From a virus, in the IMG/VR virus record IMGVR_UViG_3300030398_000007: a stretch of DNA of 64,000 nt. One strand, written 5' to 3'. The first letter of the stretch is position 1. Every line of letters begins with the position of its first letter. Both the position numbers and the translations under genes were made by a program. Positions 368-62,845 of this stretch are shown one piece after another. Below the pieces are notes generated by a model. That model worked only from the letters and a program-made list of their open reading frames with translations, was not told the origin of the DNA and ran no database searches.

Positions 368-787
368 CTCATGTTCAAAAAAAATCAGTTGAAAGATAAA
401 GAATGTATAATAATCAAGAAGAATATTCATAGGATAAAACTTGTCCAGCGGAGATATAAGGCGTGTTTTGTGTTATACTAAAAGTACTCCAGAAGTGGAA
501 GAGACTCAGGAGCGTACCAACTCATTGACAACTGACGATATCGGTCGACGACAAGAGGCGTCGTCTCAGGACGCGCCTCGCAGTCGAGACCATAAGACGG
601 GTCTCTCTTGCTCGTCGATCGGTTGCCGAAACCTTAAAATCATTTTTCACGACCATTTTTGGAGAACGGCCATGACGGACACCAAGACGCAACGACAGAT
701 AAAAAGAACCACACGCCAAATTGGCGTATGGACCGCTGCGTCTGACGGCGACGATCCGCTCATTTGATTTTTCTCTTTGAGTGATTG

Positions 788-929: not shown

Positions 930-1005
930 GGACCCATAGCTCAATTGGTAGAGCTGCCGGCTCATAACCGGAGGGTTGCAGGATCGAAACCTGCTGGGTC
1001 CACCA
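930..1005 (+). tRNA. tRNA-Met/Ile2 (anticodon CAT)
   Basis: Cloverleaf with acceptor ggaccca/tgggtcc, anticodon loop ctCATaa, T-arm gcagg/cctgc, encoded CCA. Confidence 0.8.
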
Positions 1006-1010
1006 ATAAT

Positions 1011-1088
1011 TCTGGCTTCGTCTAAAGGCAGGACGCCCGTCTTTGAAACGGGAAATCGTATTGGGTTCGAGTCCCCGAGCCAGAACCA
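1011..1088 (+). tRNA. tRNA-Gln (anticodon TTG), 8-nt variable loop
   Basis: Acceptor tctggct/agccaga + A + CCA; anticodon stem cccgt/acggg with loop ctTTGaa; T-loop TTCGAGT. Confidence 0.6.
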
Positions 1089-1116
1089 AATTGACAAATA
1101 AATAAAGGTTTTTATC

Positions 1117-1193
1117 GCCCCTGTAACTCAGCTGGCTAGAGTATCCCCCTTGTAAGGGGAAAGTCGAGAGTTCAAATCTCTCCGGGGGCTCCA
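1117..1193 (+). tRNA. tRNA-Thr (anticodon TGT)
   Basis: Acceptor gcccctg/cgggggc, anticodon stem tcccc/gggga with loop ctTGTaa, T-loop TTCAAAT, CCA. Confidence 0.8.
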
Positions 1194-1202
1194 TTTTTAC
1201 AT

Positions 1203-1276
1203 TCGGGATTGATCTAACGGTAGGATAACCGATTCTGAATCGGTTTGTCGTGGTTCGAATCCATGATCCCGAGCCA
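1203..1276 (+). tRNA. tRNA-Gln (anticodon CTG)
   Basis: Acceptor tcgggat/atcccga, anticodon stem accga/tcggt with loop ttCTGaa, T-loop TTCGAAT, CCA. Confidence 0.75.
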
Positions 1277-1286
1277 ATTTATTCAT

Positions 1287-1360
1287 GGGCTGTTAGCTCC
1301 AAGGCGGAGCAACTGGCTTTTAACCAGTGGGGCAGGGTCCGATTCCCTGGCAGCTCACCA
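1287..1360 (+). tRNA. tRNA-Lys (anticodon TTT)
   Basis: D-stem gctc/gagc, anticodon stem actgg/ccagt with loop ctTTTaa, T-stem caggg/ccctg, CCA. Confidence 0.75.
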
Positions 1361-1371
1361 TTGAAATTCAT

Positions 1372-1448
1372 GCCCCCGTAGTTCAGTCGACAAGAACGCC
1401 TGACTTCGGATCAGGAGGTCGCAGGTTCAAATCCTGCCGGGGGTTCCA
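1372..1448 (+). tRNA. tRNA-Arg (anticodon TCG)
   Basis: Acceptor gcccccg/cgggggt, anticodon stem cctga/tcagg with loop ctTCGga, T-loop TTCAAAT, CCA. Confidence 0.7.
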
Positions 1449-1461
1449 TAATTAAAGATAC

Positions 1462-1538
1462 GCTTCTGTAGCTCAGTGGTAGAGCAACCCTCTCGTAAAG
1501 GGTAGGTCGTCCGGGTTCAAATCCCACCAGAAGCTCCA
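1462..1538 (+). tRNA. tRNA-Thr (anticodon CGT)
   Basis: Acceptor gcttctg/cagaagc, anticodon stem accct/agggt with loop ctCGTaa, T-loop TTCAAAT, CCA. Confidence 0.8.
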
Positions 1539-1544
1539 ACATAT

Positions 1545-1619
1545 CCGTGGGTAGTCTAATGGCTGGGCACTCGCCTGATTAGCGAGACTATGGAGGTTCG
1601 ATTCCTTCCCCACGGACCA
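1545..1619 (+). tRNA. tRNA-Ile (anticodon GAT)
   Basis: Acceptor ccgtggg/cccacgg, anticodon stem ctcgc/gcgag with loop ctGATta, T-stem ggagg/ccttc, CCA. Confidence 0.65.
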
Positions 1620-1626
1620 GTTTAAC

Positions 1627-1702
1627 GGGTCACTAGCTCAGCAGGAAGAGCGCCTGTCTCTTAAACAGGAGGTTCCCGGATCAAGACCGGGGCGACCCAC
1701 CA
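1627..1702 (+). tRNA. tRNA-Lys (anticodon CTT)
   Basis: Anticodon stem cctgt/acagg with loop ctCTTaa, T-stem cccgg/ccggg, CCA. One acceptor mismatch and an atypical T-loop ATCAAGA. Confidence 0.65.
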
Positions 1703-1713
1703 GGTTTTTGTAC

Positions 1714-1788
1714 GCCCTTGTATCTCAACGGTAGAGACCGTGCATGGTAAGCACGAGGCTGTGGGTTCGACTCCCTCCGAGGGCTCCA
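1714..1788 (+). tRNA. tRNA-Thr (anticodon GGT)
   Basis: Acceptor gcccttg/cgagggc, anticodon stem cgtgc/gcacg with loop atGGTaa, T-loop TTCGACT, CCA. Confidence 0.75.
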
Positions 1789-1795
1789 GCATTAT

Positions 1796-1871
1796 GCCTC
1801 CGTGGCCCAACGGAAGGGAGACCGTTTCCTAAACGGTTTTTATGCAGGTTCGAGTCCTGTCGGAGGCGCCA
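1796..1871 (+). tRNA. tRNA-Arg (anticodon CCT)
   Basis: Acceptor gcctccg/cggaggc, anticodon stem accgt/acggt with loop ttCCTaa, T-loop TTCGAGT, CCA. Confidence 0.75.
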
Positions 1872-1920
1872 TTTAGTGAAGGCAAAACTTGATCTCGCAA
1901 TTTGCGATTTCAAACTTTAG

Positions 1921-1999
1921 GTTCCCGTAGCTCAACAGGAAAGAGCACTCGTCTACGAAACGAGAGGCTGACCGGGTTCAAATCCCTCCGGGGACACCA
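1921..1999 (+). tRNA. tRNA-Arg (anticodon ACG), T-stem imperfect
   Basis: Acceptor gttcccg/cggggac, anticodon stem ctcgt/acgag with loop ctACGaa, CCA. The T-arm pairs poorly, so this may be a degenerate copy of the Arg-ACG tRNA at 43129-43205. Confidence 0.6.
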
Positions 2000-2052: not shown

Positions 2053-2224
2053 GCCCCTGTAGCCTAAAGGACCAGGCACCCGTCTTCTAAACGGTTCGAC
2101 AGCCAAACTGCCATATGCGTGTTCGTCCGTGCGCAGGAAGAGGACGCGCACTCCGGTCCTCGATCCGCGTTACGGACAGGAGAAGTCCGTTCCTTGGACT
2201 CGGACGAGTCACGCCAGGGGCGCC
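2053..2224 (+). ncRNA. Aberrant 172-nt tRNA-like gene: Arg(TCT)-like 5' half and a perfect acceptor 3' end + CCA flanking a ~105-nt GC-rich insert
   Basis: 5' gcccctg pairs with 3' caggggc-g-cca, the same acceptor as tRNA-Arg at 43129. D-stem gcct/aggc, anticodon stem ccgt/acgg with loop ctTCTaa, then a GC-rich hairpin-rich insert (gtgcgc...gcgcac) with no canonical T-arm. Confidence 0.45.
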
Positions 2225-2272
2225 ACCTTCTTAACAGAACTCTCTTAAGGAAAACTATTATCGAGTAACAAC

Positions 2273-2308
2273 TATTTATTAATTAACGGTTATTTATTAA
2301 TTAACAAA
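2273..2308. repeat. Tandem direct repeat TATTTATTAATTAAC x2 in an AT-rich intergenic region
   Basis: Read directly in the sequence. Confidence 0.6.
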
Positions 2309-2375
2309 TCGCAACAAAATGGGGTAGAAAAAACGAAAACGCAGTGGTAATATTATATATTATTGGAGGGGGCCA

Positions 2376-2417
2376 TGATTCGCAAACATATTCACATGAC
2401 GGCCGAAATTCCATATT
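2376..2417 (+). pseudogene. 13-codon remnant (MIRKHIHMTAEIP*) duplicating the 5' end and RBS of the gene at 42712-43053
   Basis: About 90% nucleotide identity over ~45 nt to the reverse complement of 43013-43060, with its own GGAGG RBS. Confidence 0.6.
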
Positions 2418-2429
2418 GAGCCAAAAGAC

Positions 2430-2936
2430 GTGTCCTGGGTATACACACACGTCGGGACAGAGAATCAAATAGCCATGGGGATCCTGGCTCCAGTCTTGTC
2501 CAATGCGTTCAAGGCCGTCGTGGCAAAATACACGGCAGAAGAATTGATTACGAAAAGGAATCTTGTCAAAGCCGAAATAGACGTCCGTCTGGCCAAAAGT
2601 TTATTTACTTACAAAACGCTGGTGGACGGCGTCAACATTACGAACTTCTCCTTCTCTCCTGAATTCGAAAAGGCAATCGAACGCAAACAGGTTGCCCAGC
2701 AACGGTCCTTGCAGGCACAGTACGAACTGGACAGATCCCGTGTCAAGGCGAAGCAAAAAGTTGTCACGGCCAAGGCGGACGCAGACGCCTTGAAACTCAA
2801 ACAGGCCGTTTTGACACCCATGCTTCTCCAGCTTGAGGCAATCAAACACTGGAACGGTGTGTTGCCCATGGTGACAGGATCTGGTGGCGTTCCCTTGATC
2901 AACATTGGTGCACTAAATGGTCACATTAAACGTTGA
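2430..2936 (+). CDS. SPFH/band-7 (prohibitin/HflC-like) domain protein, N-terminally truncated (GTG start; missing TM/N-terminal part)
   Basis: ELITKRNLVKAEI...FSPEFEKAIERKQVAQQ...QYELDRSRVKAKQ is the characteristic SPFH C-terminal coiled region. Confidence 0.55.
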   Translation: MSWVYTHVGTENQIAMGILAPVLSNAFKAVVAKYTAEELITKRNLVKAEIDVRLAKSLFTYKTLVDGVNITNFSFSPEFEKAIERKQVAQQRSLQAQYELDRSRVKAKQKVVTAKADADALKLKQAVLTPMLLQLEAIKHWNGVLPMVTGSGGVPLINIGALNGHIKR

Positions 2937-4329: not shown

Positions 4330-4467
4330 ATATACTCTTTAACAGAATGGCGCCGTAATTCTCCGCCATTTATGGAGGGGATATAAGGCGTGTTATCAAA
4401 AGACTCGGGCTGGAGTCTTTGGCGCGTAGCGCCTAGAAGCCCCTTCCTGAAGGAAGGGGAGCAGTCA
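4330..4467 (+). mobile_element. Miniature IS605-family derivative (LE+RE only, MITE/PATE-like) related to the tnpB element at 45190-46455
   Basis: acagaatggcgccgtaattctccgccat... (LE) joined to aaagactcgggctggagtctttggcgcgtagcgcctagaagc...ggggagcagtcac (RE). The same ends flank tnpB at 45238-46389. Confidence 0.75.
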
Positions 4468-13865: not shown

Positions 13866-16255
13866 ATGGGCGGAAAAGCCATTAAGCCATTAGCAGAAAA
13901 ACTCGGACGGCCAATCGTCAGACTTTCAAAACAGGGGATCGATCAAATCCAGGACCATATTTCTTTCAGACTTGGAATTCCTTTGATTCAACCAAAATCA
14001 TTTCCGACAAAATCAGATTTTGGGGATTTGGATCTGCTTGGGCAATTTTCAGGAATGAATCCTCAAGTCATACAGGAAAGAATTGGTTCTGTCGGGTTTG
14101 TCCAAAATGGCCCAGTCACAAGCTTTGCCATGCCTGTCGGAGAAAGTTTGTTCCAGGTTGATCTGATTAACGTGCCAGCAAACAAGATTGAATTCACCTC
14201 ACGATATATGGCTTGGGGCGGAGCTGGAAACTTTTTGGGAAAGATTGCGCGGTTTTACGGAATGAAACTTTCAGACGACGCCTTGTATGCCGCCTACAAG
14301 GTTTCAGGAGACAGACATTATCTTCCAATTACAAAAATTTTTTCAGAAGCTCTTGAAATTTTAGGATATGACTATGAAAAATTCGAAAAGGGCTTTTCTT
14401 CAGAACAGGATTTTTTAAAATATGTCAAGGACGGAAAGCTTTTCAAAGAAGAAGCGTTCCTTATTGAAAATTTTCGACACAAAGACCGGGTAAGAGAACG
14501 AAAACGTCCAGCTTTTAAAGAAATTGTTGTTCAAAAAAACACGGTGCTTGAAGGTGAAAAAGAGGAAAAATATTTGACTGAAGACGAATTTAACAAATTA
14601 TCTTTGCGGTACCCGTTACTCAAAGAATCGTTGGTTTTGTTACATAAAAAATTGCAGGAGGAAAAAGACTTCAGCAAAAAATGGAATGGAACCCTGGTCT
14701 CAAACATTACCGGACTTGAGAAGAAAGAGCTTGGTGATTTTATGAGGGATTTTACTTCAAGATTCCATTCTTCCTCTGATTTTCGCAATTGGGTTAAAAG
14801 GACTCCTGATTCAAGTATTCGTTTGGAAATCCTCTCCGAGTATGCGTTCAAGGGAACAAGAGACGATCTGGAACTCCATGTCGTTGGCGGAGCCGTCAGA
14901 AACGCGATTCTTGGGCTAAAGGTCAAGGACATTGACTACGTCGTTTTAGGAGAAACGCGCGAGTCCATGCTTCAAAAAGGGTTTACACTTGTCGGAAAAG
15001 ACTTTCCGGTATTCCTTGGTCCGGACGGACGAGAATATGCTCTGGCCAGAAGAGAACGCCAAACAGGTCATGGTCATACGGCCTTCGACGTCGACACCCG
15101 AAACGTGACACTGGAAGAAGACCTTTACCGGAGGGATCTGACCATAAATGCCATAGCTCTTTCCAGAACCGGAAGAGTAACGGATCCGTTTGGAGGAAGA
15201 GCCGATTTGGAAACAGGTATTTTGAGTAACGTTTCAGACCATTTTTCCGAAGACCCTCTACGTGTTTTGCGAGTGGCAAGATTTTATGCAATTCTCGGAA
15301 GCCACAAAGAGAATGTCAAAATCGCTCCGGAGCTTGAGCACATGTTGTCCTCGATCGTCAATGCAGGCGGATTGGATTCTTTGTCCAAAGAACGAATTTT
15401 TCAGGAGTTGTCCGGCTGTCTCAATACCGACAAGCCGTCATTGGCGCTGAATGTTCTTCATGAGTGTGGTGCACTGGCCAGAATCCTTCCGGAGGTGGCC
15501 AATCTGGACGGAGTGCCCCAATCCCCGCAATGGCACCCGGAAGGCGACGCCTTTGTCCATACGCTGCTGGTGGTCGACAAGGCTGCCGAAATGCACTCCC
15601 CTGCTCCGGTCCGCTTCGCCGCGCTGGTGCATGACGTCGGCAAGGGATTGACACCGAAAGAATTGCTGCCAAAACACCATGGCCACGAAAACAGAGGGGT
15701 TCCGCTTGTGGAGGAAATCTGTGAACGGCTCGGCGTTCCTTCCTCCTGGAAAAAACTGGCGCTGCAGTAACGGAAAATCACCTCAAGCTTCACAAGATTC
15801 CCGAATTAAAGCCAAAAACGATACACGATCTGCTTGAAATGATTGGCGGGTTAAAAAAGGACACACTGACATTCTTCGAGAACGTTATTGCCGCTTGTCG
15901 GGCGGACGATTATGGAAAAAACAGGTTCCAGGAATATCAGCCAGGCGTTTGGGCGAAAAAAATGTCGACGGCTGCCATGTCGATCACCGGAGAGACGCTG
16001 TTGCAAAAAGTGGCTGAAGCTTCGACCTGTGTCCGCGACGTGGACTCGGACGGTCTCGCGAACTACGGCCATAGTTCGGCCTCCGTTGCTTCGGACGTTG
16101 TCCTCGCGAATTCCGACCATAGAACGGTCTCCATTGAAAACGCAACTTGTCCGGAAGGAGAAGAATTTGGCCGAAGACTGCGGGAACTGAGGATTGGTGC
16201 AATCAGGCAACAGAAACATGAACTGAAAAGAATCCTGGAACGGAAACGTTCCTAG
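13866..16255 (+). CDS. cca: CCA-adding tRNA nucleotidyltransferase with HD domain and a ~300-aa N-terminal extension; frameshifted near 15765 (A6 tract)
   Basis: Pol-beta NTase head GGAVRNAILG...DIDYV, RRDLTINA, and HD motifs HTLLVVDKAAEM...ALVHDVGKG. After the stop at 15770 the -1 frame continues TENHLKLHKIPELKPKTIHDLLEMIGG, homologous to the E. coli Cca C-terminus. Confidence 0.7.
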
Positions 16256-20279: not shown

Positions 20280-21359
20280 TTAATTAAATTCAGTTCCGCC
20301 TTTTCGTAGCAAATACTCTTCCGAAACAGACTTCAGAATTTTTCTTTCGCCAATCGCCCGAACAACAACCCCTTCCCTCATATGGACTCCGGATCCGGAA
20401 ACGGACTCTTTTCCGCTGGTTAGTTTTTCGATAACAGCCTTTGAAAATGGCCCGACATAAAGAACCGGCGTTTTTTCGGCAATTTTGATCATTTTGGATA
20501 CCAACGATTCTTGATTCCAGACGAATTGACCGTGTTCCTTGGTGGCAACGTCAAACCACCTGAACGAAAGAGTGCCTCCATATGACAAGTCCTGGACGCC
20601 TTTGCCGAACACCTCTCCAAGGACATAAACGGGATTTTCTGAGCGTCCAAACGCTACAAGTAATTGTTCAGATATTTTTTCGACCGCACGAAGGTAAATG
20701 TTATTCTTATTGCGATCGTTGTTTTTAATTGCAAGACCTTTGGCTCCAAGACCCTTGCTAAAAACGGCAATACGTTCGGAGACCAGATTTTCTGAAAAAT
20801 TCGCAGCTGTATCCGGCGGCAAAATAACCAGGCCACAGAAACTGCCATGAATTTTTTCGGTTATTTCGACGCACTCTCCTTCATTGAAAAAATCCGGAAA
20901 CTTCTTGATATTTTCCACGTCGAATGCCAATGTGTTTTCGGTCCCGAGATTGAATACTTCTCCGGCCATTGCCACCGGTATTTCCGGTTCATACTTTTTG
21001 ATACCAAGTTCTGCAGAAACGTCGTCTCCGACTTTTACCTGAATCGTTTTTCCGTCCGGAAGTTCAAGGAGATTGTTTTTTATTGGATAAACAAGTCCCT
21101 GGCTTAACACCCCTCTTAATTTGATTGCCTTGACGCGATTTTTGTTGCTGCCGGCCAGTCGTCCGACAAGACCAAGCTTTTCTATGACCGGCCCCGGCAA
21201 TACGGACGCTTCCGGAATATAAACGGCCATGTCTCCTGATTTGAACATTCCTTTGGCTACAACCGCCCTGTAATCGCCGATCCTGGCCAGATCCAATGCG
21301 TCTGCGTCCGGGTGCGGTTCGATATCAAGTTTGACGACGTCACAAGAAAAGCTGGACAT
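20280..21359 (-). CDS. ATP-dependent RNA ligase (Rnl2/Rnl5-like nucleotidyltransferase) with N-terminal tRNA-binding OB (EMAP/Trbp111-like) domain
   Basis: N-terminal VVKLDIEPHPDADALDLARIGDYRAVVAKG fits the tRNA-binding OB fold; motif I EKIHGSF (KxHG) as in T4 Rnl2 and the DraRnl/NgrRnl ligases. Confidence 0.65.
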   Translation of the reverse strand: MSSFSCDVVKLDIEPHPDADALDLARIGDYRAVVAKGMFKSGDMAVYIPEASVLPGPVIEKLGLVGRLAGSNKNRVKAIKLRGVLSQGLVYPIKNNLLELPDGKTIQVKVGDDVSAELGIKKYEPEIPVAMAGEVFNLGTENTLAFDVENIKKFPDFFNEGECVEITEKIHGSFCGLVILPPDTAANFSENLVSERIAVFSKGLGAKGLAIKNNDRNKNNIYLRAVEKISEQLLVAFGRSENPVYVLGEVFGKGVQDLSYGGTLSFRWFDVATKEHGQFVWNQESLVSKMIKIAEKTPVLYVGPFSKAVIEKLTSGKESVSGSGVHMREGVVVRAIGERKILKSVSEEYLLRKGGTEFN

Positions 21360-24570: not shown

Positions 24571-25344
24571 ATGACAGCAAATGGCGGAAAAACAATATTG
24601 GCTATTACAGATATTAATAGAGTATTTGGCATTGATATTAAGCCGGAAATACTTAAGCCCATTAACACAAACGTTTCTGTCTCAGATCTATCGGCAAGAG
24701 AAGACTTTTTGGAAATCTTGCCGCTTACGAGGAACATACGCGTGCCGGATCCTGATATTGGCGGAGGACGTATTTCATTTACCGCCAAATTGTCTGTCGG
24801 ATTTCCGATTCTGAAGAGAAATGAAACGGTACAAAGACTAGCTTTTCGGTGTGACATAATTCATGGAAACGTCTCACATGTATTTGAACGAAAATTTTCA
24901 GATTCGTTCTGGCAACGAGAAAACATGGATTTTATGCCGATCGTTGAAAAAATCCTTTTCAAAACAAACAACTCTGCCTTGTTAAAAAGAAGAGCATTGG
25001 GATTTAAATCAACGCTTTCAGTTGCTTCCGTGCTGTCTCCTCTCCAAAGACAACAGAGATTGACAGACAAAGAGGTTTCTGTTCTAAGCGATTTTTTAAA
25101 TACACACAGTGTAACTTATTCAAATTCAGGAAATGAGACAGCTAAAATAAAAGGACTAAAAGTCAGTCCTCCAGTTAAGATTTGTTCAGGATATCTTCCG
25201 AATATATGGACACTGAAAGATCTGGCCGCATGGGTGCTTGTTACGGATAGGTGGCCAACGCTTTCCGAAGCGAGAAAGTTGCAGCGCGAGAATCAGATTA
25301 AAATGAACAGACTAATGGCCGATTTGGAGACCGAAAGGACATAG
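24571..25344 (+). CDS. Novel paralog family member A (C-terminal NIWTLKDLAAWVLVTDRWPTLSEARKL)
   Basis: Conserved C-terminal module shared with six other ORFs in the window. Confidence 0.5.
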   Translation: MTANGGKTILAITDINRVFGIDIKPEILKPINTNVSVSDLSAREDFLEILPLTRNIRVPDPDIGGGRISFTAKLSVGFPILKRNETVQRLAFRCDIIHGNVSHVFERKFSDSFWQRENMDFMPIVEKILFKTNNSALLKRRALGFKSTLSVASVLSPLQRQQRLTDKEVSVLSDFLNTHSVTYSNSGNETAKIKGLKVSPPVKICSGYLPNIWTLKDLAAWVLVTDRWPTLSEARKLQRENQIKMNRLMADLETERT

Positions 25345-25443: not shown

Positions 25444-26643
25444 ATGGAAAAACTTTATACGGAACTGAAAAACGGAAAACTCAGGCTGTGGGCTGACGTC
25501 AACATGGTCGAATCAGACGCTCTGGCTCAATCTGAAAACGTATCGAGTCTGCCGATACTGGCCGGACCTGTAGCCCTTATGCCAGACGTTCACCTTGGAA
25601 AGGGTGCTACTGTCGGAAGTGTCATTCCGACAAGAAAAGCCATAATCCCTGCTTCTGTCGGGGTCGACATTGGTTGCGGCATGCTTGCTGTAAAATTTAA
25701 CATGCGTGCCAATGATTTGCCTCAAAATTTGTCGTCTGTCAGAAGGGCTATTGAATCTGTCGTTCCAGTCGGGTTTAGCGAAAATACGGAAGAAAAAACA
25801 GATCGTGACGCAAGCCAATTGCTGGCTGGTGGGTTTCGCCGAATAGTCGAAAAAGCACCGGGGTTGTTGGACAACCGAAAAACAAAAGATTCATGGACCA
25901 GACAAATCGGTTCTCTTGGTGGAGGAAACCATTTTGTCGAATTGTCATTAGACGAAGAAGGCTCGGTGTGGCTCATGCTGCATTCTGGCTCACGAGGAAT
26001 TGGAAACGCGATTGGCACCTACTATGTTGAACGGGCAAAGGAGTATTCTTTGTCTATGGGATATAATCTCCCGGACAAGGATCTGGCCTGGCTTGACGAA
26101 GGAACTCCTTTTTTCGACGAATACTGGTTTGCATTGGAATGGGCACAACAATATGCAAGGGAAAACAGGCGTGTCATGTATTCCAGGATCCGTACCGTCT
26201 TAAAAGAGTTTTTTCCGCACATTCAAGTAGAAGGAACAATCGTCAATTGTCACCACAACTATTGCAGTATTGAAAAACTGCCTTCCGGAGAAGAGATTTA
26301 TCTGACGCGAAAAGGCGCAATATCTGCAAAGAAGGACGAATGGGGCATTATTCCCGGGAGCATGGGAACCCGTTCGTTTATCGTCAAGGGACTCGGCAAT
26401 GACGCCTCATATCAGTCCTGCTCGCATGGTGCCGGTAGACGTATGAGCAGAGGAAAGGCCAAGAAAGTTTTTACCCAGGAAGATCTGGCCGAACAAACCA
26501 AGGGAGTAGAATGCCGGAAGGACGCAGGTGTAATCGACGAGATTCCTGGTGCCTACAAAGATATTGACGACGTTATGCGCAGGCAGTCAGACCTGGTGAC
26601 GCCGGTACATGTGCTGAAACAGGTTTTGTGTGTAAAAGGTTAA
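25444..26643 (+). CDS. rtcB: RtcB RNA 3'-phosphate ligase
   Basis: GGGNHFVEL, HSGSRGIGN and C-terminal SCSHGAGRRMSRGKAKK (catalytic His); length 399 aa. Confidence 0.85.
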   Translation: MEKLYTELKNGKLRLWADVNMVESDALAQSENVSSLPILAGPVALMPDVHLGKGATVGSVIPTRKAIIPASVGVDIGCGMLAVKFNMRANDLPQNLSSVRRAIESVVPVGFSENTEEKTDRDASQLLAGGFRRIVEKAPGLLDNRKTKDSWTRQIGSLGGGNHFVELSLDEEGSVWLMLHSGSRGIGNAIGTYYVERAKEYSLSMGYNLPDKDLAWLDEGTPFFDEYWFALEWAQQYARENRRVMYSRIRTVLKEFFPHIQVEGTIVNCHHNYCSIEKLPSGEEIYLTRKGAISAKKDEWGIIPGSMGTRSFIVKGLGNDASYQSCSHGAGRRMSRGKAKKVFTQEDLAEQTKGVECRKDAGVIDEIPGAYKDIDDVMRRQSDLVTPVHVLKQVLCVKG

Positions 26644-37285: not shown

Positions 37286-38404
37286 TTATCTGACCAAATC
37301 AATCTCCCCTTCCAAAACCCTCTCCACCAGCGTCGTGCTTTTTCCACTTCGATAATCCTTCACTAAAGCCGCCGGCGCAAAAACATACGACCGGACCCTA
37401 TGACCAAAGTCTGCTGGACCACCAGCCCGGAGATTGGCCTCCTTTTCTTTTCGCCTGGCAGCTCGTTCTTTCTCCGACAAAAGAGATTTCAGCTTTTCTA
37501 TGGCAATGGCCCTGTTCCGTTCCTGTGTTCGTTCCTCCTGGCAGGTTACGACAATTCCGGTCGGTTTGTGTGTTAGTCGAACGGCCGTTTCGACCTTGTT
37601 GACGTTTTGTCCGCCCTTTCCGGAAGACCGAAAGAATCCGATCTCGATATCCTCCTGCAAGATTTCTGTCCGGCTTTCTTCCAGCGGTTCTGTCCATACG
37701 GAGACTCCGGCAAAGGAGGTTTGCCGCCTCCCTCCCCTGCCGTATGGAGAAAATCGGGACAATCGGTGGGAGATCCGGTTTCAGAAGTAAGATCCGACAA
37801 GAGAATGGTCTCTGATTTCAACAGAACGCGCCTGAATCCTGTCTCCGTTTCTTCTGCGTCAATGATTTGCAGGTCGCGTCTTTTTAACAGAATGGCGCCT
37901 TGTATCTCCGCCATAAATGGCGGAGATACAAGGCGTGTTTCACTATTTTTATTGTAACGCACAACATGATATAATGCTTATCATGAAGAATAAAAAGACT
38001 CGGGCTGGAGTCTTTGGCGCGTAGCGCCTAGAAGCTCCTTCCTTTCAGGGAGGGGAGCAGTCACCCTGGCATAACCAAGATACATGGCGGCCAGCATTTG
38101 CTTCAATCCCTCCCGTTCCGGCCAGAATGGACATAAAGAGATTCTCTTCCTGGAGGGATTGTTTGGCGAAACAAGAATCGAGACTGTTTGATTTCTGATA
38201 TTGGATTAACAGAGGAATTGTTTCGGCAAGAATATTTATGGCCTGGTTCGATTCTCTTTCAAAAAAAAGAATGTTGTCAGAATCCAGATACTGGCATTGA
38301 AGAGCTTCTTTTGCCGTTTCCAGGTCGTCAATTGCGGACGACATACGTTTATGTGCCGAAAGCATAATCGAGGCCTGACGAAGCGTTTTGAGCGGTCTGG
38401 ACAA
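37286..38404 (-). pseudogene. Class I peptide chain release factor gene interrupted by the MITE at 37889-38066 and carrying a frameshift at a T-tract near 37775
   Basis: N-part (38404-38070) contains ILAGTGGIEA (RF2 AGSGGTEA). After the MITE: AEETETGFRRVLL (RF ETGVHRLVRKSPFDS), then in the -1 frame [13 protein letters not shown]...[21 protein letters not shown] (GGQ domain). The first ~20 codons of the 37962 ORF are encoded by the MITE inverted repeat. Confidence 0.65.
37889..38066 (+). mobile_element. Miniature IS605-family derivative (LE+RE), second copy, inserted in the release-factor gene
   Basis: acagaatggcgccttgtatctccgccat... (LE) to ...ggaggggagcagtcac (RE); ~90% identical to 4330-4467. 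Confidence 0.75.
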
Positions 38405-42711: not shown

Positions 42712-43053
42712 TTATCTCTCAATGACACTTTCCGGAAACACATTGTCTTTTCGTGTTTGAGTGTTGTCCATAACGGTTGTCAACTCAAATTTTGTTTTTG
42801 CGTGACGTGCGCCAAATGATCGGATTGTGTCGATCGTGGCAGCCAAGTCCATACCCGTGCATTCTCCGGAAATGTCAATAACAAAACTTTCGGCAAAATC
42901 CCAAACTTCGGCCGCAGAAATATTCATTTCGGCAATTGAATTTGTCAATTTTGGCAGAACAGTTTTTGCCCAATCTTCTGCCATAACGTCAATGGCCTTG
43001 TCATTAATAGCAACTGGAATTTCAGCTGTCATGTGAATGTGTTTGCGAATCAT
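42712..43053 (-). CDS. Hypothetical protein (its 5' end is duplicated at 2376-2417)
   Basis: ORF with GGAGG RBS; lies directly downstream of the minus-strand tRNA pair. Confidence 0.4.
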   Translation of the reverse strand: MIRKHIHMTAEIPVAINDKAIDVMAEDWAKTVLPKLTNSIAEMNISAAEVWDFAESFVIDISGECTGMDLAATIDTIRSFGARHAKTKFELTTVMDNTQTRKDNVFPESVIER

Positions 43054-43128
43054 AATACCTCCAAAATAGATTAGATTACCAGAATGTTTTTATTTAAGCA
43101 TTTGTTTTTTTGTTTTTTGTCAAAAACA

Positions 43129-43205
43129 TGGCGCCCCTGGCAGGATTTGAACCCGCGACCCTCTCGTTCGTAGCGAGACGCTCTTATCCTCTGAGCTACA
43201 GGGGC
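43129..43205 (-). tRNA. tRNA-Arg (anticodon ACG)
   Basis: Reverse complement gives acceptor gcccctg/caggggc-g-CCA, anticodon stem tctcg/cgaga with loop ctACGaa, T-stem gcggg/cctgc. Confidence 0.8.
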
Positions 43206-43244
43206 ATTAAAGTTTGGATCGTCCTTCGGACTCCAGAATCTTAT

Positions 43245-43320
43245 TGGTGGGTTGCCTCGGAGTCGAACCGAGAGTCTCGCAGCTTAAAAGGCCGGGGTTT
43301 TGCCATTAAACTAGCAACCC
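43245..43320 (-). tRNA. tRNA-Lys (anticodon TTT)
   Basis: Reverse complement gives acceptor gggttgc/gcaaccc-a-CCA, anticodon loop ctTTTaa, T-stem ctcgg/ccgag with loop TTCGACT. Confidence 0.7.
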
Positions 43321-45224: not shown

Positions 45225-46455
45225 AAGGAAGGAGCTTCTAGGCGCTACGCGCCAAAGACTCCAGCCCGAGTCTTTTTATATTTGTAGCGGCATTTCTGTT
45301 TCTGTCCTGTTTCTTGCCGCATTTTGGACACTTATACACACGGACATTCAAAGGCATTTTCTGCCTATGTCCACAACCAGGTGTAGAACAGTCCTGAGAC
45401 GTGTACGCAGGATCGACTTTCACAAACTCTCGACCAGCTTCTGCCGCTTTGTTCGAGAGTATGGAGAGAAAGGTTCCCCACGCAGTGTCGTATTGCGCAT
45501 TGTTGATCGAAGCATATTCCGAAACCATTTCTGAAGGGGTCAGATCTTCGACCACGATAATTCCGTACTTGCCGACAAGAGATTTTGCTGTTTTATGGAA
45601 AAAATCCTGTCTTTGGTTAAAAACTTTCTCGTGAATCTTTGCAACAATTTTTTTCTTCTTCTCTTTATCTTTGCCGGGATTATTTTTTTGCAGGTCTAGC
45701 CTTCGTTGTTCCTGAGCCAAACGCTTGGCACTTTTTTTGAGAAATTTCGGATTCTGGACGATCGGATCCTCGTCTTCGGAAGTGGTCAGAAATTCTTTGA
45801 TTCCCATGTCGATCCCGACCGATAGAGGACTATTTGACAGACGTTTAGGCTCTACGTTGTCACAAGAAAAACAAACGAACCATTTGCCAGTACTTGTTCT
45901 TTTAATCGTGCAGGTTTTTATTTTTCCTTCAAGACTTCTGTGTGTGAGAACTGAAACCTTCCCAACACCAAAAAGTTTCAAAACATTTCCTTGCAATGAA
46001 AATCCCACGTTGTTTTGTGGGAACGTTAAGGAATCGTACCGGTCTTTACCTTTGAATCTTGGATACCCAGGGTCTTTGGCTCCTTCTTTAAGTCTTCTGA
46101 AAAAAGACTGAAAGGCCAGATCGACTCTTTTGACAACGTCTTGAAGAACCTGTGAATGAACGAACCTCAGAGAAGGTCGAATCTTTTTTAGACAAGGAAG
46201 CATGTTCTGCTGTTCGTGATAAAATAACGAAACGCCATACCATTTCCATGCGTTTTTTCGGTGTTCTAGCATGTAGTTGTAGAGCCACCGGCACTCTTCA
46301 AGCCGCTGAGAGAGAAGTGTCTTTTGATTTTTTGTCGGATACAGCCGATATTTGAAAGTTTTTTTCATAATGAGTATTATATCATACATACACTACAAAT
46401 AGAAGGGGTCGCCTTATATCCCCGCTATGAATGGCGGAGAATTACGGCGCCATTC
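45190..46455 (-). mobile_element. IS605-family (IS1341-like, tnpB-only) element with defined LE (46390-46455) and RE/omega-RNA scaffold (45190-45240)
   Basis: LE gcattttaacagaatggcgccgtaattctccgccat (rc) and RE ...aaagactcgggctggagtctttggcgcgtagcgcctagaagctccttcc...ggggagcagtcac; the same ends form the miniature copies at 4330 and 37889. Confidence 0.8.
45238..46389 (-). CDS. tnpB: TnpB (IS605 OrfB-family RNA-guided nuclease)
   Basis: 383 aa; FKYRLYPTKNQ N-terminus, C-terminal Zn-finger CSTPGCGHRQKMPLNVRVYKCPKCGKKQDRNRNAATNI. Confidence 0.85.
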   Translation of the reverse strand: MYDIILIMKKTFKYRLYPTKNQKTLLSQRLEECRWLYNYMLEHRKNAWKWYGVSLFYHEQQNMLPCLKKIRPSLRFVHSQVLQDVVKRVDLAFQSFFRRLKEGAKDPGYPRFKGKDRYDSLTFPQNNVGFSLQGNVLKLFGVGKVSVLTHRSLEGKIKTCTIKRTSTGKWFVCFSCDNVEPKRLSNSPLSVGIDMGIKEFLTTSEDEDPIVQNPKFLKKSAKRLAQEQRRLDLQKNNPGKDKEKKKKIVAKIHEKVFNQRQDFFHKTAKSLVGKYGIIVVEDLTPSEMVSEYASINNAQYDTAWGTFLSILSNKAAEAGREFVKVDPAYTSQDCSTPGCGHRQKMPLNVRVYKCPKCGKKQDRNRNAATNIKRLGLESLARSA

Positions 46456-47228: not shown

Positions 47229-47465
47229 ATGTTCCTGTTCCTGTTCCTGTTTCCTGTAGCCTTGGTTCTTATATTGGTTTACGCTCCGATATGGGCCAAA
47301 CGATTCGACAGCCGCGTAGCGCAATTGATTTTCTTGACGTGTGTATTGACATTTGTGGGATCTTTGGCGGCCGGCATGTTAACAGGACAATCGCCGCTGC
47401 AGGCATATATGTCTGGACTGAATGCTTTTACACAGGCTATATCTGACGCAGCTAAAGAAAAATAG
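47229..47465 (+). CDS. Small membrane protein
   Basis: RBS AAAGGAGG; 2 TM. Confidence 0.45.
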   Translation: MFLFLFLFPVALVLILVYAPIWAKRFDSRVAQLIFLTCVLTFVGSLAAGMLTGQSPLQAYMSGLNAFTQAISDAAKEK

Positions 47466-51291: not shown

Positions 51292-51494
51292 GTGGCGCCT
51301 CCAAAATATTACCATAGTAGTTGTTATACGATATAATGATCGTACCACAAACTATTCTGGTTGAATCAAAAAGTGGAGACGTTACAGACTGTTTTAAAAT
51401 AGCGAGCGAATGGAATTTTGAGACAACACCATTGGGGCGGCAAAAAACAAAAGACACTTTCGCCGCCACATGGATTTAACCGGCATGGAGAAGA

Positions 51495-54812: not shown

Positions 54813-55946
54813 ATGGCAAAACCAAAAAATTTTAAAAAATTTGTCGCAAGCAAAGAAGATTGTTTTTCCGTATACAACGCTTCGTTTCACCTTTCCGGAA
54901 GGCTAAATCATTCGGAATCTTCTATTGGTATTCGCTACGGTAAAAACGAGGGAATCCTTTTGCCGTATGTTTGTGCTAGAACAATAATTGGGTCTGGTGA
55001 ACTTGTTCCAACGGATTATTTAAACGGTGTGCACGGAGAATCTTTTGGGCAAAAGGTTAGAGATACATTGCATGTTAGAAATCTTCTACTCGATCCCAAA
55101 CTATCGGACGAGCAAAAGAAGCTCCTTCCAACAGAAGAAACCCAACGGACAATACGTGACGCATGGCTTTCCTGGAACCCAAGCCATAAATCCAATGACA
55201 TAGACCTGTTTGATCCAAATTGTAAACAAATTCTTTTACCAGAGAAACTTTCTGACTTTACGAATTACAAGTCTTACACCCCACTTCCTGCTCCAGGCAT
55301 TTCAAAAATGCTACACATAAAATGCAACGATTTTTCAAATACATTAACAGAGTCTAAGGAAGAGAACAAAGAATCTACAACGAATTGCTTCAAATTCTGT
55401 TCAATAGCTTATGGTGGGACTAAACCGCAAAATGTTACGACAATGAGTATAGTCAGAAGCGCGATTGTTGGATTAGCTCCAAAACATAACAAGACTTATG
55501 CAAAATTGTTACGAGCTTTGTATTCTAAAGAAGTTTTTTCGTTATATAACTTCAAAGAAGTTATGGAATCATATTATTCGTGGTTTTTATCAAGAAATAA
55601 CAAGAACAAACATATTGAAAAAATAGAAAATGTTTTGATTGAAAAAATAGTTAAATCAGTAAGTGAACAAATCGAAACTTTTTATAACTCACTATCACAA
55701 AATTTTGATACAGAAGAGATCAAATATGTCACAAATAAAATAAATGACAGATTGCTGTCTGGGATTTGTGATCCTGCTTCCAGAGATTTTGAATGGTTCA
55801 ATATATTATCTTCTGCAATAGTAGAAGAAATGGCTTCTTTCAAATTCGGAAAAAACGGAGAGACAATCTCGTATTCTATTGTTGATAGGAATCGGGTAAG
55901 AACAATCGTTTATAAAACAATTTTAAAACAATATAGAGAAGAATAA
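54813..55946 (+). CDS. cas8f: Cas8f/Csy1-like large subunit (short, 377 aa)
   Basis: First gene of the operon, 1-nt overlap with cas5f. Assignment rests on synteny with csy2-csy3-cas6f; no strong motif recognised. Confidence 0.5.
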   Translation: MAKPKNFKKFVASKEDCFSVYNASFHLSGRLNHSESSIGIRYGKNEGILLPYVCARTIIGSGELVPTDYLNGVHGESFGQKVRDTLHVRNLLLDPKLSDEQKKLLPTEETQRTIRDAWLSWNPSHKSNDIDLFDPNCKQILLPEKLSDFTNYKSYTPLPAPGISKMLHIKCNDFSNTLTESKEENKESTTNCFKFCSIAYGGTKPQNVTTMSIVRSAIVGLAPKHNKTYAKLLRALYSKEVFSLYNFKEVMESYYSWFLSRNNKNKHIEKIENVLIEKIVKSVSEQIETFYNSLSQNFDTEEIKYVTNKINDRLLSGICDPASRDFEWFNILSSAIVEEMASFKFGKNGETISYSIVDRNRVRTIVYKTILKQYREE

Positions 55947-57953: not shown

Positions 57954-57983
57954 AATAAACCGTCTAAGAAAAAGGAGGAGACA

Positions 57984-58541: not shown

Positions 58542-58565
58542 CAAGCATACAAAGGACTTAAATGT

Positions 58566-62788: not shown

Positions 62789-62845
62789 AATGGGTAACTC
62801 TTAAAAAAGTGGCTTTTTCTCATGCCAGTATTGAAACATTCTCCT

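What the first reader, a model, noticed from the sequence alone, without database searches (positions are those of the whole stretch)
2053..2224. 172-nt tRNA-like gene with an intact Arg(TCT)-type 5' half, perfect acceptor closure + CCA, and a 105-nt GC-rich insertion replacing the T-arm
5' gcccctg pairs perfectly with 3' caggggc-g-CCA, the very same acceptor as tRNA-Arg(ACG) at 43129. The D-arm and anticodon arm (loop ctTCTaa) look canonical. Then ~105 nt of GC-rich hairpins (gtgcgc...gcgcac; gtccg...cggac) intervene, and no canonical T-arm precedes the 3' acceptor strand. This is too short for a group I intron and misplaced for an archaeal-type intron. It could be an att-site scar from an integrase (duplicated tRNA 3' end), an embedded small RNA or mobile insertion, or a split or unusual tRNA.
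Basis: seen in the sequence. Interest (0 to 1): 0.6.

Follow-up and report, generated by a model that had tools for sequence, protein, structure and literature searches.

The report
tRNA-Arg gene split in its T-loop
This is a real arginine tRNA gene on a plasmid-like element whose T-loop carries a clean 81-base, hairpin-forming insertion that a close relative lacks; it is either a knocked-out copy or, less likely, a kind of bacterial tRNA intervening sequence not described before.

Summary
Window 2053-2225 (+) is a tRNA-Arg(UCU) gene, the last member of a 13-gene tRNA array on a plasmid-like element. A backbone relative comes from acid-mine-drainage biofilm.

The T-arm, however, is not missing. 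It is GCGTG-TTCG | 81-nt insert (2126-2206) | AGT-CACGC. The other ~16 "extra" bases are a conserved long variable arm.

- **In-silico removal:** deleting the 81 nt restores the T-loop TTCGAGT, and ARAGORN then calls tRNA-Arg(tct).
- **Restored T-arm:** the T-arm plus acceptor 3' strand matches >120 ordinary metagenomic tRNA-Arg(CCT) loci exactly.
- **Empty site:** a related array (L200) carries the same gene uninterrupted (Rfam tRNA, 50.8 bits).
- **Occurrence:** eleven other assemblies carry the insert.

The insert is 61% G+C and unique in all DNA I could examine. It has no target duplication beyond a 2-nt CG ambiguity. It matches no Rfam family, no BHB motif and no att-type repeat. It extends the T-stem by 8 bp and sequesters U54-C56, so the RNA cannot decode unless the insert is removed.

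Most likely (~50%) this allele is disabled by an IVS-like insertion. The serious alternative (~30%) is excision, RNase III-style, with or without religation. The att-scar reading is rejected.

The parts
2053..2125 (+). 5' exon of tRNA-Arg(UCU). Acceptor 5' strand 2053-2059; D-arm 2062-2077; anticodon arm 2079-2095 (anticodon TCT 2086-2088); 21-nt variable arm 2096-2116; T-stem 5' strand GCGTG 2117-2121; first four T-loop bases TTCG 2122-2125.
   Evidence: Sequence read directly. The 5' half is 84-87% identical to annotated tRNA-Arg(UCU) genes of Ounavirinae phages and a Tolypothrix plasmid array. It differs at only 2 of 73 positions from the uninterrupted L200 gene.
2096..2116 (+). Long, class-II-like variable arm TCGACAGCCAAACTGCCATAT. 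Stem GACAG/CTGCC has one A.C mismatch; loop is CCAAA.
   Evidence: Present in the uninterrupted L200 allele as a perfect 5-bp stem GGCAG/CTGCC. It is therefore part of the tRNA, not of the insertion.
2126..2206 (+). 81-nt insertion in the T-loop between nt 57 and 58. The register is ambiguous by 2 nt (CG). Its ends (TCCG / CGGACG) pair with each other and with C56-G57. Inside are hairpin A (2131-2170), hairpin B (2172-2190, loop AGGAGAA) and a 10-nt linker (2191-2200).
   Evidence: Exactly this block is absent from L200 in the 13-allele alignment. Its removal restores a tRNA that ARAGORN calls. G+C: the 118-nt interior stretch 2096-2213 containing it is 61%. Fold. No other copy in the window or in related loci. 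No Rfam match at E<=10. No similarity to any tRNA of the window. One polymorphism, A2172G, changes the closing A-U pair of hairpin B to G.U.
2207..2225 (+). 3' exon. Last three T-loop bases AGT 2207-2209; T-stem 3' strand CACGC 2210-2214; acceptor 3' strand CAGGGGC 2215-2221; discriminator G2222; CCA 2223-2225.
   Evidence: Joined to 2117-2125, it is identical to the T-arm and acceptor of ordinary metagenomic tRNA-Arg(CCT) genes.
930..1999 (+). The twelve intact tRNA genes of the same array: Met, Gln x2, Thr x3, Lys x2, Ile, Arg-TCG, Arg-CCT, Arg-ACG. The interrupted gene is the 13th member. The array follows a terminator-like hairpin at 787-820.
   Evidence: ARAGORN; Rfam tRNA 44.7-68.9 bits; terminator scan.

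Best explanation
SHOWN
- Window 2053-2225 is a genuine tRNA-Arg(UCU) gene. It is the last member of a tRNA array on a plasmid-like element.
- Its T-loop is split between positions 57 and 58 by an 81-nt insertion (2126-2206).
- The T-arm is intact on either side: GCGUG-UUCG | insert | AGU-CACGC.
- The gene has a conserved long variable arm.
- A related array carries the same gene without the insert, so the insert is a discrete indel polymorphism. There is no target-site duplication beyond a 2-nt CG ambiguity. Terminal inverted repeats are only 5 nt. No second copy was found anywhere I could look.

SHOWN BY FOLDING
- In the transcript, the acceptor, D and anticodon arms and the variable hairpin form as in a tRNA.
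- The insert's ends pair with each other and with the T-loop halves: U54.G59, U55-A58, C56-G2206, G57-C2205, then 4 more pairs.
- This gives an 8-bp extension of the T-stem capped by a three-way junction of two hairpins.
- That locks up U54, U55 and C56, the bases that build the tRNA elbow with the D-loop.

INFERRED
- With the insert in place the RNA cannot work as a normal decoder.
- The insert has no self-splicing, self-cleaving or bulge-helix-bulge signature.
- The same replicon shows other broken genes.
- I therefore judge it most likely (about 50%) that this allele was disabled by insertion of a small palindromic, IVS-like DNA segment. It would persist as a non-decoding tRNA-like transcript.

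I hold the structural description (what it is) at about 0.95. The stated fate (disabled) I hold at about 0.5.
For: T-arm split and restoration
- In-silico removal of 2126-2206 gives T-loop TTCGAGT, and ARAGORN calls tRNA-Arg(tct), 92 nt.
- The restored 21-mer is found in >120 metagenome loci; 100 carry an ARAGORN-called tRNA-Arg(cct) with an identical T-arm and acceptor.

Empty site
- L200:407-498 is the same gene uninterrupted. It has 2 substitutions in the 92 nt. It scores 50.8 bits on Rfam tRNA, against a gathering score of 29.

Insert-bearing allele
- Present in the window and in 11 other assemblies: L027-L029, L196-L199 and L202-L205. It is therefore not an assembly artefact.

Fold
-.

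No known catalytic or intron motif
- Rfam at E<=10 finds nothing.
- At 81 nt it is far below the 184-nt minimum of the 333 group I introns surveyed in bacterial tRNA genes.
- The junctions lie in a continuous helix, not in bulges.

No splicing endonuclease, RNase III, integrase or Y1 transposase
- None in the 77 of 90 ORFs (>=70 aa) scanned.

Other damaged genes on the same replicon
- A release-factor-like gene is split by an IS605-type mini-element.
- The CCA-adding-enzyme gene is frameshifted.
- The SPFH gene is truncated.

Possible decay in the exons
- All insert-bearing alleles have an A.C mismatch in the variable-arm stem. That stem is perfect in the uninterrupted allele.

Both-strand folding
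- The structure is equally stable on both strands (z = -2.8 and -3.5), as expected for a DNA palindrome rather than a strand-specific RNA.
Against: - The exons are otherwise flawless. None of the 92 exon positions varies among 12 insert-bearing alleles. The surrounding 257 nt of spacer show 4 SNPs and 2-3 indels.
- The insert's G+C (about 61%) matches that of the tRNAs rather than the 42% replicon. This looks like selection for RNA structure.
- Its one polymorphism keeps a base pair (A-U to G.U) on the + strand only.
- It folds as an independent domain and leaves the rest of the cloverleaf intact.
- AGA is the commonest Arg codon in the window (211 of 537). This is the only array member that reads it, and the array otherwise covers whole isoacceptor families.
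- The replicon encodes RtcB and an Rnl-type RNA ligase.
- The interrupted allele is found in 12 of 13 alleles, in two haplotype groups.
- No source element or second copy was found that would show the insert is mobile DNA.
Confidence: 0.5

Rival explanations
1. Processed intervening sequence. The 81 nt are cut out of the precursor, so the allele still yields a working tRNA-Arg(UCU).

Most plausible route: a double-strand-specific cut of the T-stem extension by host RNase III, as for 23S rRNA IVSs. This would leave either a two-piece tRNA nicked between G57 and A58, or ends (3'-OH / 5'-P) that the plasmid's Rnl-type ligase reseals.

A variant: cleavage by a metal-independent nuclease, then sealing by the plasmid's RtcB.
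For: - The architecture is that of an rRNA IVS. A hairpin loop is replaced by an extended helix, and the element is sporadically present among close relatives (IVS properties in PMC8708148).
- In the MFE helix, the two exon/insert junctions in register 0 are offset by 2 bp, which gives 2-nt 3' overhangs. That is the RNase III geometry. All seven T-loop bases remain on the tRNA side. (This is my inference.)
- RtcB (25444-26643) and an RNA ligase (20280-21359) are on the same replicon.
- Exons are perfectly conserved. The insert's G+C is tRNA-like. The single polymorphism is pair-preserving (A-U to G.U). AGA is the top Arg codon. The interrupted allele predominates.
- I could not check whether SRR2080029, the source of L200, is a DNA or an RNA library. 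If it is RNA, the clean absence of the insert would itself be a spliced product.
Against: - No such processing is known for any bacterial tRNA. Known bacterial tRNA introns are group I or II. The group I introns lie in the anticodon loop, and the one group II site named outside it is the D-loop.
- The RNase III geometry holds in only one of three equally possible registers. It follows partly from the palindromic CG at the junction.
- The helix is only 13 bp.
- RtcB, Rnl and a CCA-adding enzyme beside a tRNA array are sufficiently explained as a tRNA-repair kit.
- There is no covariation evidence, because no diverged homologue of the insert exists.
- L200 differs from all interrupted alleles at two exon positions and by ~14% upstream. 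It is therefore a different strain, not simply a spliced copy.
Confidence: 0.3
2. Retained expansion. The 173-nt RNA is the functional product. It would be a tRNA-shaped RNA with an extra structured domain at the elbow, acting outside decoding. Examples: a decoy for a tRNA-targeting nuclease or toxin, or a stable scaffold that displays the two hairpins.
For: - The insert folds as an independent three-way junction while the acceptor, D and anticodon arms stay tRNA-like.
- Its G+C is tRNA-like.
- The context is rich in tRNA- and translation-conflict genes: a tRNA array, RtcB, an RNA ligase, a CCA-adding enzyme, HipA, an RF-like gene and type I-F CRISPR-Cas.
Against: - There is no conserved family, no homologue and no partner protein.
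- The uninterrupted allele shows the gene's ancestral role is an ordinary tRNA.
- The insertion is very recent: the flanks differ by ~1% between alleles with and without it. That leaves little time for a new function to evolve.
Confidence: 0.1
3. att-site scar. The 3' end of the tRNA is a duplicated integrase core and the insertion is what remains of an integrated element.
For: - The T-loop is a classical integrase crossover site (for example mycobacteriophage Ms6, PMC1762012, listed).
- About 20 of the 122 metagenomic matches to the restored T-arm are 3' fragments of tRNA-Arg(CCT), i.e. att-type duplications. This tRNA family is therefore a frequent integration target.
Against: - Nothing is duplicated. 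The T-loop is simply split, with a 2-nt ambiguity.
- No direct repeat of the 3' end exists in the window. The only match is the 3' end of tRNA-Arg(ACG), in inverted orientation.
- The insert is 81 nt.
- No integrase was found among the ORFs scanned.
- Integration normally regenerates an intact tRNA at one junction. That is not seen here.
Confidence: 0.03

Closest known systems
Intervening sequences (IVS) of bacterial 23S rRNA, excised by RNase III
   Same: - A non-coding block of roughly 100 nt replaces a hairpin loop with an extended helix.
- It is sporadically present or absent among close relatives.
- It has no catalytic core and no coding capacity.
(IVS properties from PMC8708148; this element.)
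   Different: - IVSs are known in rRNA, not tRNA. They are 100-200 nt and are not religated.
- Here the host RNA is a tRNA whose loop bases are needed for the elbow.
- Processing is untested here.
- The fold is a three-way junction rather than one long hairpin.
Group I introns in the T-loop of tmRNA genes and in bacterial tRNA anticodon loops
   Same: - An interruption of a tRNA-type gene in Bacteria that hides it from standard detectors.
- tmRNA introns sit in the very same loop, at four subsites (PMC11915505).
   Different: - Those are self-splicing ribozymes. Lengths are 184-894 bp for the tRNA introns (PMC13011429), and intron-form tmRNA genes are at least 545 bp overall.
- They have a U at -1, a terminal G and a P1-P9 core.
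- This insert is 81 nt, has no Rfam group I match, and cannot satisfy the -1 U / terminal G rule while restoring the loop.
Archaeal non-canonical tRNA introns (bulge-helix-bulge, EndA + RtcB)
   Same: - Short introns that can lie outside the anticodon loop, including the T-arm (my own knowledge; the review PMC4090602 appears).
- They are resealed by RtcB, and an RtcB homologue is encoded in the window.
   Different: - There is no bulge-helix-bulge. Both junctions lie inside a continuous helix.
- No splicing endonuclease was found.
- The replicon is bacterial: type I-F CRISPR-Cas, TPS secretion, HipA, a class II CCA-adding enzyme, and genomically encoded CCA ends.
Small non-autonomous palindromic insertions (MITE / REP / IS200-IS605 mini-elements)
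   Same: - Size, stable folding on both strands, and presence/absence polymorphism.
- The same replicon has an IS605-type mini-element that split another gene.
   Different: - Terminal inverted repeats are only 5 nt.
- There is no clear target duplication.
- No other copy was found in the window, in related loci, or among predicted-protein ORFs.
- It has no similarity to the IS605-type mini-element of this replicon.

Membership tests
tRNA (Rfam RF00005), Arg(UCU) isoacceptor | Cloverleaf recognised by a tRNA covariance model or detector | tested here: met
   The interrupted gene itself is missed. With the 81 nt removed, ARAGORN calls tRNA-Arg(tct). The natural uninterrupted allele L200:407-495 scores 50.8 bits (gathering score 29, E = 7e-10), similar to its neighbours.
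tRNA (Rfam RF00005), Arg(UCU) isoacceptor | Conserved tertiary and identity positions: U8, A14, G18-G19, A20, U33, C35, G53-C61, U54-U55-C56, A58, N73, CCA | tested here: met
   All are present by direct reading. Deviations: a C27.U43 mismatch, C instead of A at position 21, and a 21-nt variable arm. All three are shared with the uninterrupted allele.
Group I intron | Catalytic core P3-P9 (Rfam RF00028), length of roughly 180 nt or more, U at -1 and G at the intron 3' end | tested here: not met
   81 nt. No Rfam match at E<=10. No register gives both -1 U and terminal G while restoring TTCGAGT (reading). The survey minimum is 184 bp.
Archaeal/eukaryal protein-spliced tRNA intron | Bulge-helix-bulge motif at the two splice sites | tested here: not met
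   Both junctions lie within an uninterrupted 8-bp helix. The only bulge is U60.
Archaeal/eukaryal protein-spliced tRNA intron | Splicing endonuclease (EndA) available | tested here: inconclusive
   None among the 77 of 90 ORFs >=70 aa scanned with Pfam. The host genome is unknown.
Self-cleaving ribozymes (hammerhead, twister, HDV-like, pistol, hatchet, etc.) | Match to the family covariance model | tested here: not met
   cmscan with permissive filters, E<=10, on 1990-2300 found only a chance miRNA match outside the element.
Integrase att site / att scar in a tRNA gene | Direct repeat of the tRNA 3' segment bounding inserted DNA, with an intact tRNA regenerated at one junction | tested here: not met
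   Junctions share only CG. There is no direct repeat of the 3' end in the window. No intact tRNA is present at the left junction.
rRNA-type IVS (RNase III-excised) | Extended helix replacing a hairpin loop; sporadic among close relatives | tested here: met
   An 8-bp extension of the T-stem plus a three-way junction. Present in 12 alleles and absent in L200.
rRNA-type IVS (RNase III-excised) | Excision by RNase III from the precursor RNA | not testable with these tools
   Only the geometry could be examined. One of three possible registers gives 2-nt 3' overhangs (inference).
MITE / non-autonomous transposon | Terminal inverted repeats, target-site duplication, multiple copies | tested here: inconclusive
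   - The 5-nt inverted repeat is GTCCG/CGGAC, and a 2-nt CG repeat is possible.
- No second copy in the 64-kb window, in ~70 kb of related loci, or among predicted proteins.
- An 18-mer scan of 185,579 genomes gave only scattered single hits.
- The host genome was not available.

The most novel reading that the evidence does not exclude
The 81 nt are a true intervening sequence of a bacterial tRNA, located in the T-loop. They would be removed by protein enzymes rather than by self-splicing: an RNase III-type double-strand cut of the T-stem extension. The product would be resealed by the plasmid's own RNA ligase (Rnl or RtcB), or left as a functional two-piece tRNA. This would be the first non-group-I/II tRNA intron in Bacteria, and it would tie plasmid- and phage-borne RNA ligases to a splicing-like role.
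Probability: 0.25. Interest if true: 0.85.

Novelty: new variant of a known kind. Interest (0 to 1): 0.45.

Why it matters
According to a 2026 survey of complete bacterial genomes, bacterial tRNA genes are interrupted only by self-splicing group I introns in the anticodon loop and by a few group II introns. A short, non-catalytic block in the T-loop falls outside that picture.

If it is dead weight, it is a tidy example of how a small palindromic insertion hides and kills a tRNA gene on a mobile element. It also shows how such genes escape annotation.

If it is removed from the RNA, it extends the rRNA-IVS principle to tRNA, or reveals protein-dependent tRNA splicing in Bacteria.

The case is unusually testable. 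Interrupted and uninterrupted alleles both exist in nature, and two linked SNPs lie 22-27 nt from the junction. A single short RNA read can therefore tell splicing from an empty allele.

Tried and rejected
Searches that found nothing useful
- **Structure-anchored pattern** GTTCGTCCG-N60-90-CGGACGAGT in viral contigs: 18 hits, all unrelated coding sequence.
- **D-arm 19-mer** in the viral, metagenome and genome collections: no hits.
- **Neighbouring tRNA-Arg(ACG) 22-mer** in viral contigs: one unrelated tRNA-Ser.
- **Insert k-mers:** hairpin B 17-mer in viral contigs gave 4 coding-sequence chance hits. Hairpin A 18-mer in 185,579 genomes gave 32 single scattered hits. The best was a 24-nt intergenic hairpin in a Planctomycetota MAG with no tRNA nearby, which I judge to be chance.
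- **Interrupted T-arm pattern** with any 66-96-nt filler in viral contigs: none.
- **BLAST of the element** against the phage and plasmid collections: only the 5' half matches tRNA-Arg genes.
- **Synteny** via the SPFH and methylase neighbours in viral contigs: distant relatives without tRNAs.
- **Six-frame peptides of the insert** against 5.8 billion protein clusters: none.

Hypotheses rejected
- **The insert is a tRNA fragment or a duplicated array unit:** no similarity above shuffled controls.
- **The insert is a relative of the replicon's IS605-type mini-element:** no similarity.
- **Integron attC, hammerhead core motifs and group II boundary motifs,** checked by eye: absent or uninformative.
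- **The 12-nt match at 16041** lies inside a coding region and is chance.
- **The tRNA-like matches at 47253-47313** lie inside a small ORF and are chance.
Full report
**1. What is at the coordinates**

The sequence at 2053-2225 (+) reads as follows:

- acceptor 5' strand GCCCCTG
- TA
- D-arm GCCT/AAAGGACC/AGGC
- A
- anticodon arm CCCGT/CTTCTAA/ACGGT, anticodon TCT at 2086-2088
- 21 nt TCGACAGCCAAACTGCCATAT
- GCGTG TTCG
- 81 nt (2126-2206)
- AGT CACGC
- acceptor 3' strand CAGGGGC
- discriminator G
- CCA

ARAGORN and Rfam find 12 tRNAs immediately upstream (930-1999) and two more at 43129-43320. They find nothing here. A permissive Rfam scan of 1990-2300 at E<=10 also finds nothing relevant.

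The acceptor does equal that of tRNA-Arg(ACG) at 43129.

**2. The T-arm is not missing; it is split**

GCGTG (2117-2121) and CACGC (2210-2214) form a 5-bp T-stem that abuts the acceptor strand. The loop begins TTCG and ends AGT.

Three results support this reading:

- Deleting 2126-2206 in silico gives the canonical loop TTCGAGT. This is the same loop as in the array's own tRNA-Arg(CCT). ARAGORN then calls a 92-nt tRNA-Arg(tct).
- The restored 21-mer GTGTTCGAGTCACGCCAGGGG was used to scan the metagenome collection.
- 100 of those loci carry an ordinary tRNA-Arg(CCT) with the identical acceptor stem and T-arm.

The exons on both sides of the insert are therefore those of a bona fide tRNA-Arg lineage.

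**3. A natural empty site**

The neighbouring SPFH protein belongs to a 90% cluster with 11 variants. Looking up the contigs that encode them gave twelve further alleles of the locus. Eleven carry the insert and one lacks it:

- L027-L029: identical to the window.
- L196-L199 and L202-L205: 96-99.8% identical.
- L200 (Logan assembly of SRR2080029): this carries the end of a related array with Thr-GGT, Arg-CCT, Arg-ACG and Arg-TCT. It is 85.7% identical upstream and 98.5% identical downstream.

In L200 the tRNA-Arg(TCT) is uninterrupted:

GCCCCTGTAGCCTAAAGGACCAGGCACCCGTCTTCTAAACGGTTCGGCAGCAAAACTGCCATATGCGTGTTCGAGTCACGCCAGGGGCGCCA

It scores 50.8 bits on Rfam tRNA, like its neighbours.

In the 13-allele alignment the only length difference inside the gene is the 81-nt block. 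Its register is ambiguous by the dinucleotide CG. There is no target duplication beyond that, and the terminal inverted repeat is only GTCCG/CGGAC.

The 21-nt variable region is present in L200 too. There it forms a perfect 5-bp stem (GGCAG/CUGCC). It is therefore a feature of the tRNA, not part of the insertion.

Caveat: I could not establish whether SRR2080029 is a DNA or an RNA library. L200 differs from every interrupted allele at two exon positions and by ~14% upstream, so it is at least a different strain.

**4. The insert**

- **Composition and copy number.** It is G+C-rich: the 118-nt interior stretch 2096-2213 containing it is 61% G+C, in a 42% window, and it is unique in the window.
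- **Other searches.** It is absent from the other related loci and unrelated to any tRNA of the window. It has no relative in the phage or plasmid collections. k-mer scans of viral contigs and 185,579 genomes gave nothing beyond chance. A peptide search of predicted proteins found nothing.
- **Stability.** The T-arm plus insert folds at -46.6 kcal/mol, z = -2.8, with 0 of 200 shuffles as stable. The complementary strand folds equally well, z = -3.5.
- **Structure.** The T-stem continues through U54.G59, U55-A58, C56-G2206, G57-C2205 and four more pairs. It runs into a three-way junction made of hairpin A (2131-2170), hairpin B (2172-2190, loop AGGAGAA) and a 10-nt linker.
- **Rest of the molecule.** In the full-length fold the acceptor, D and anticodon arms and the variable hairpin form as in a tRNA.
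- **Polymorphism.** The only variant in the insert, A2172G in four alleles, turns the closing A-U pair of hairpin B into G.U.

**5. What it is not**

- **Not a group I or II intron.** It is 81 nt, against at least 184 nt for the group I introns of bacterial tRNA genes, which lie in the anticodon loop (PMC13011429). The T-loop introns known in tmRNA genes are also group I (PMC11915505).
- **Not a known self-cleaving ribozyme**.
- **Not an archaeal-type intron.** The junctions lie in a continuous helix, not in a bulge-helix-bulge.
- **Not an att scar.** Nothing is duplicated, no direct repeat of the 3' end exists, and no integrase was found.
- **Not an assembly artefact.** It appears in twelve assemblies (the window plus eleven).

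**6. Context**

The array follows a terminator-like hairpin at 787-820. It covers whole isoacceptor sets: Gln x2, Lys x2, Thr x3, and Arg TCG/CCT/ACG. The interrupted gene is the only reader of AGA, which is the commonest Arg codon in the window (211 of 537).

The replicon encodes the following:

- RtcB, an Rnl-type RNA ligase and a CCA-adding enzyme.
- A release-factor-like gene and HipA.
- Two-partner secretion genes.
- Two TnpB genes.
- A complete type I-F CRISPR-Cas locus with its array.

Backbone relatives lack the whole module containing the array:

- L075 has a methylase 97% identical.
- L074 is GenBank contig ACXJ01012498, from the Richmond Mine acid-mine-drainage "unassigned contigs" (PMC2745766).

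L074 carries a plasmid-type Rep/primase gene.

Several genes on the replicon are damaged:

- The release-factor gene is split by an IS605-type mini-element.
- The CCA-adding gene is frameshifted.
- The SPFH gene has lost its N-terminal half.

**7. How it most likely works**

With the insert in place, U54, U55 and C56 are paired inside the helix. The T-loop/D-loop elbow cannot form. The RNA therefore cannot decode unless the insert is removed.

*Reading A: disabled allele (about 50%).* It was created by insertion of a small palindromic, IVS-like DNA segment.

- For: no catalytic or recognised splice motif; equal folding on both strands; a replicon with other broken genes; an A.C mismatch in the variable stem of all interrupted alleles.

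*Reading B: processed intervening sequence (about 30%).*

- For: flawless exons (0 of 92 sites polymorphic, against 4 SNPs and 2-3 indels in 257 nt of spacer); tRNA-like G+C; the pair-preserving polymorphism; independent folding; predominance of the interrupted allele; the IVS-like architecture (PMC8708148).
- In one of the three possible registers, the two junctions face each other across the helix with a 2-bp offset. This leaves 2-nt 3' overhangs, the RNase III signature. All seven loop bases would stay on the tRNA side. The result would be a nicked two-piece tRNA or a substrate for the plasmid's 3'-OH/5'-P ligase.
- That geometry is my inference from the predicted fold. It is partly a consequence of the palindromic CG.

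*Reading C: retained expansion with a non-decoding role (about 10%).*

*att scar: about 3%.*

**8. Verdict**

The element belongs to no described class of bacterial tRNA interruption. Without RNA evidence, the conservative reading is an insertion-disabled allele. The interrupted/uninterrupted allele pair and the two linked SNPs make the alternative directly testable.

Noticed in passing
window 2096-2116; L200:450-470: The tRNA-Arg(UCU) of this array has a 21-nt, class-II-like variable arm. The stem is a perfect 5 bp in L200. The tRNA also has Arg-type features (A20, C35, U36, G73). A long variable arm is normally restricted to Leu, Ser, Tyr and Sec tRNAs in bacteria. Which synthetase charges this tRNA is open.
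   Followed up: partly
window 54813-63233: A complete type I-F CRISPR-Cas locus sits on the plasmid-like element: Csy1-like, Csy3, Cas6f/Csy4, Cas1 and a Cas2-Cas3 fusion. It has an array of 7 repeats (GTTATCCACGACATATGTGGCTTAGAAA, 60-nt period).
   Followed up: partly
window 37286-38404 (-): A class I release-factor-like gene (PCRF part and GGQ/RF-1 part) is interrupted by a ~185-nt IS605-type mini-element. The left-end palindrome is at 37896-37935 and the right-end-like block at 37990-38043. The same mini-element occurs at 4335-4448, and its ends flank the TnpB gene at 45238-46389.
   Followed up: partly
window 13866-16255 (+): The CCA-adding-enzyme-like gene has an extra N-terminal nucleotidyltransferase-like region of ~330 aa. 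It stops at 15770 and continues in the -1 frame (…ALQ / VTENHLKLHK…) to 16255. This could be a frameshifted pseudogene, programmed frameshifting or a sequence error.
   Followed up: no
window 20280-21359 (-), 25444-26643 (+): An Rnl-type RNA ligase (PF09414 with an N-terminal OB fold) and an RtcB ligase are on the same replicon as the tRNA array. This looks like a tRNA-repair kit. The 257-aa ORF just upstream of RtcB (24571-25344) has no Pfam match.
   Followed up: partly
window 2405-2936; L201:595-1412: The SPFH/Band-7 gene next to the array lacks its N-terminal half. In the array-less relative L201 that N-terminal part is present, and homology to the window begins at 2405. The array cassette therefore replaced the gene's 5' end.
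   Followed up: partly
window 1287-1360 and 1462-1538; L197, L198: Between haplotypes, the tRNA-Lys(TTT) slot carries a different allele (24 differences in L198). The tRNA-Thr(CGT) has 7 changes clustered at 1487-1507. The array members are being exchanged or are evolving individually.
   Followed up: no
window 530-700: A G+C-rich stretch lies between the methylase gene and the terminator in front of the array (for example GTCGACGACAAGAGGCGTCGTC…). It has no convincing ORF and may be another structured RNA.
   Followed up: no
window 2270-2310: The AT-rich motif TTATTTATTAATTAAC occurs twice in tandem between the interrupted tRNA and the SPFH gene. It is conserved in all alleles and may be an operator or promoter element.
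   Followed up: no
window 43015-43081 vs 2345-2413: The second mini-array (tRNA-Lys-TTT and tRNA-Arg-ACG, 43129-43320, minus strand) shares a ~69-nt downstream flank (82% identity) with the main array. In some haplotypes (L200, L203, L204) the GNAT gene is joined directly to the 44131 region. This indicates structural rearrangement between the two tRNA modules.
   Followed up: no
loci L076-L195 (metagenome hits to the restored T-arm): About 20 of the 122 matches are not whole genes. They are 3' fragments of tRNA-Arg(CCT) starting in the anticodon loop or at the T-stem. These are typical att duplications of elements integrated into this tRNA.
   Followed up: no
window 49441-53396 (-): Two tandem paralogous AAA-ATPase genes (635 and 633 aa) share DNA blocks that are 72-77% identical.
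   Followed up: no
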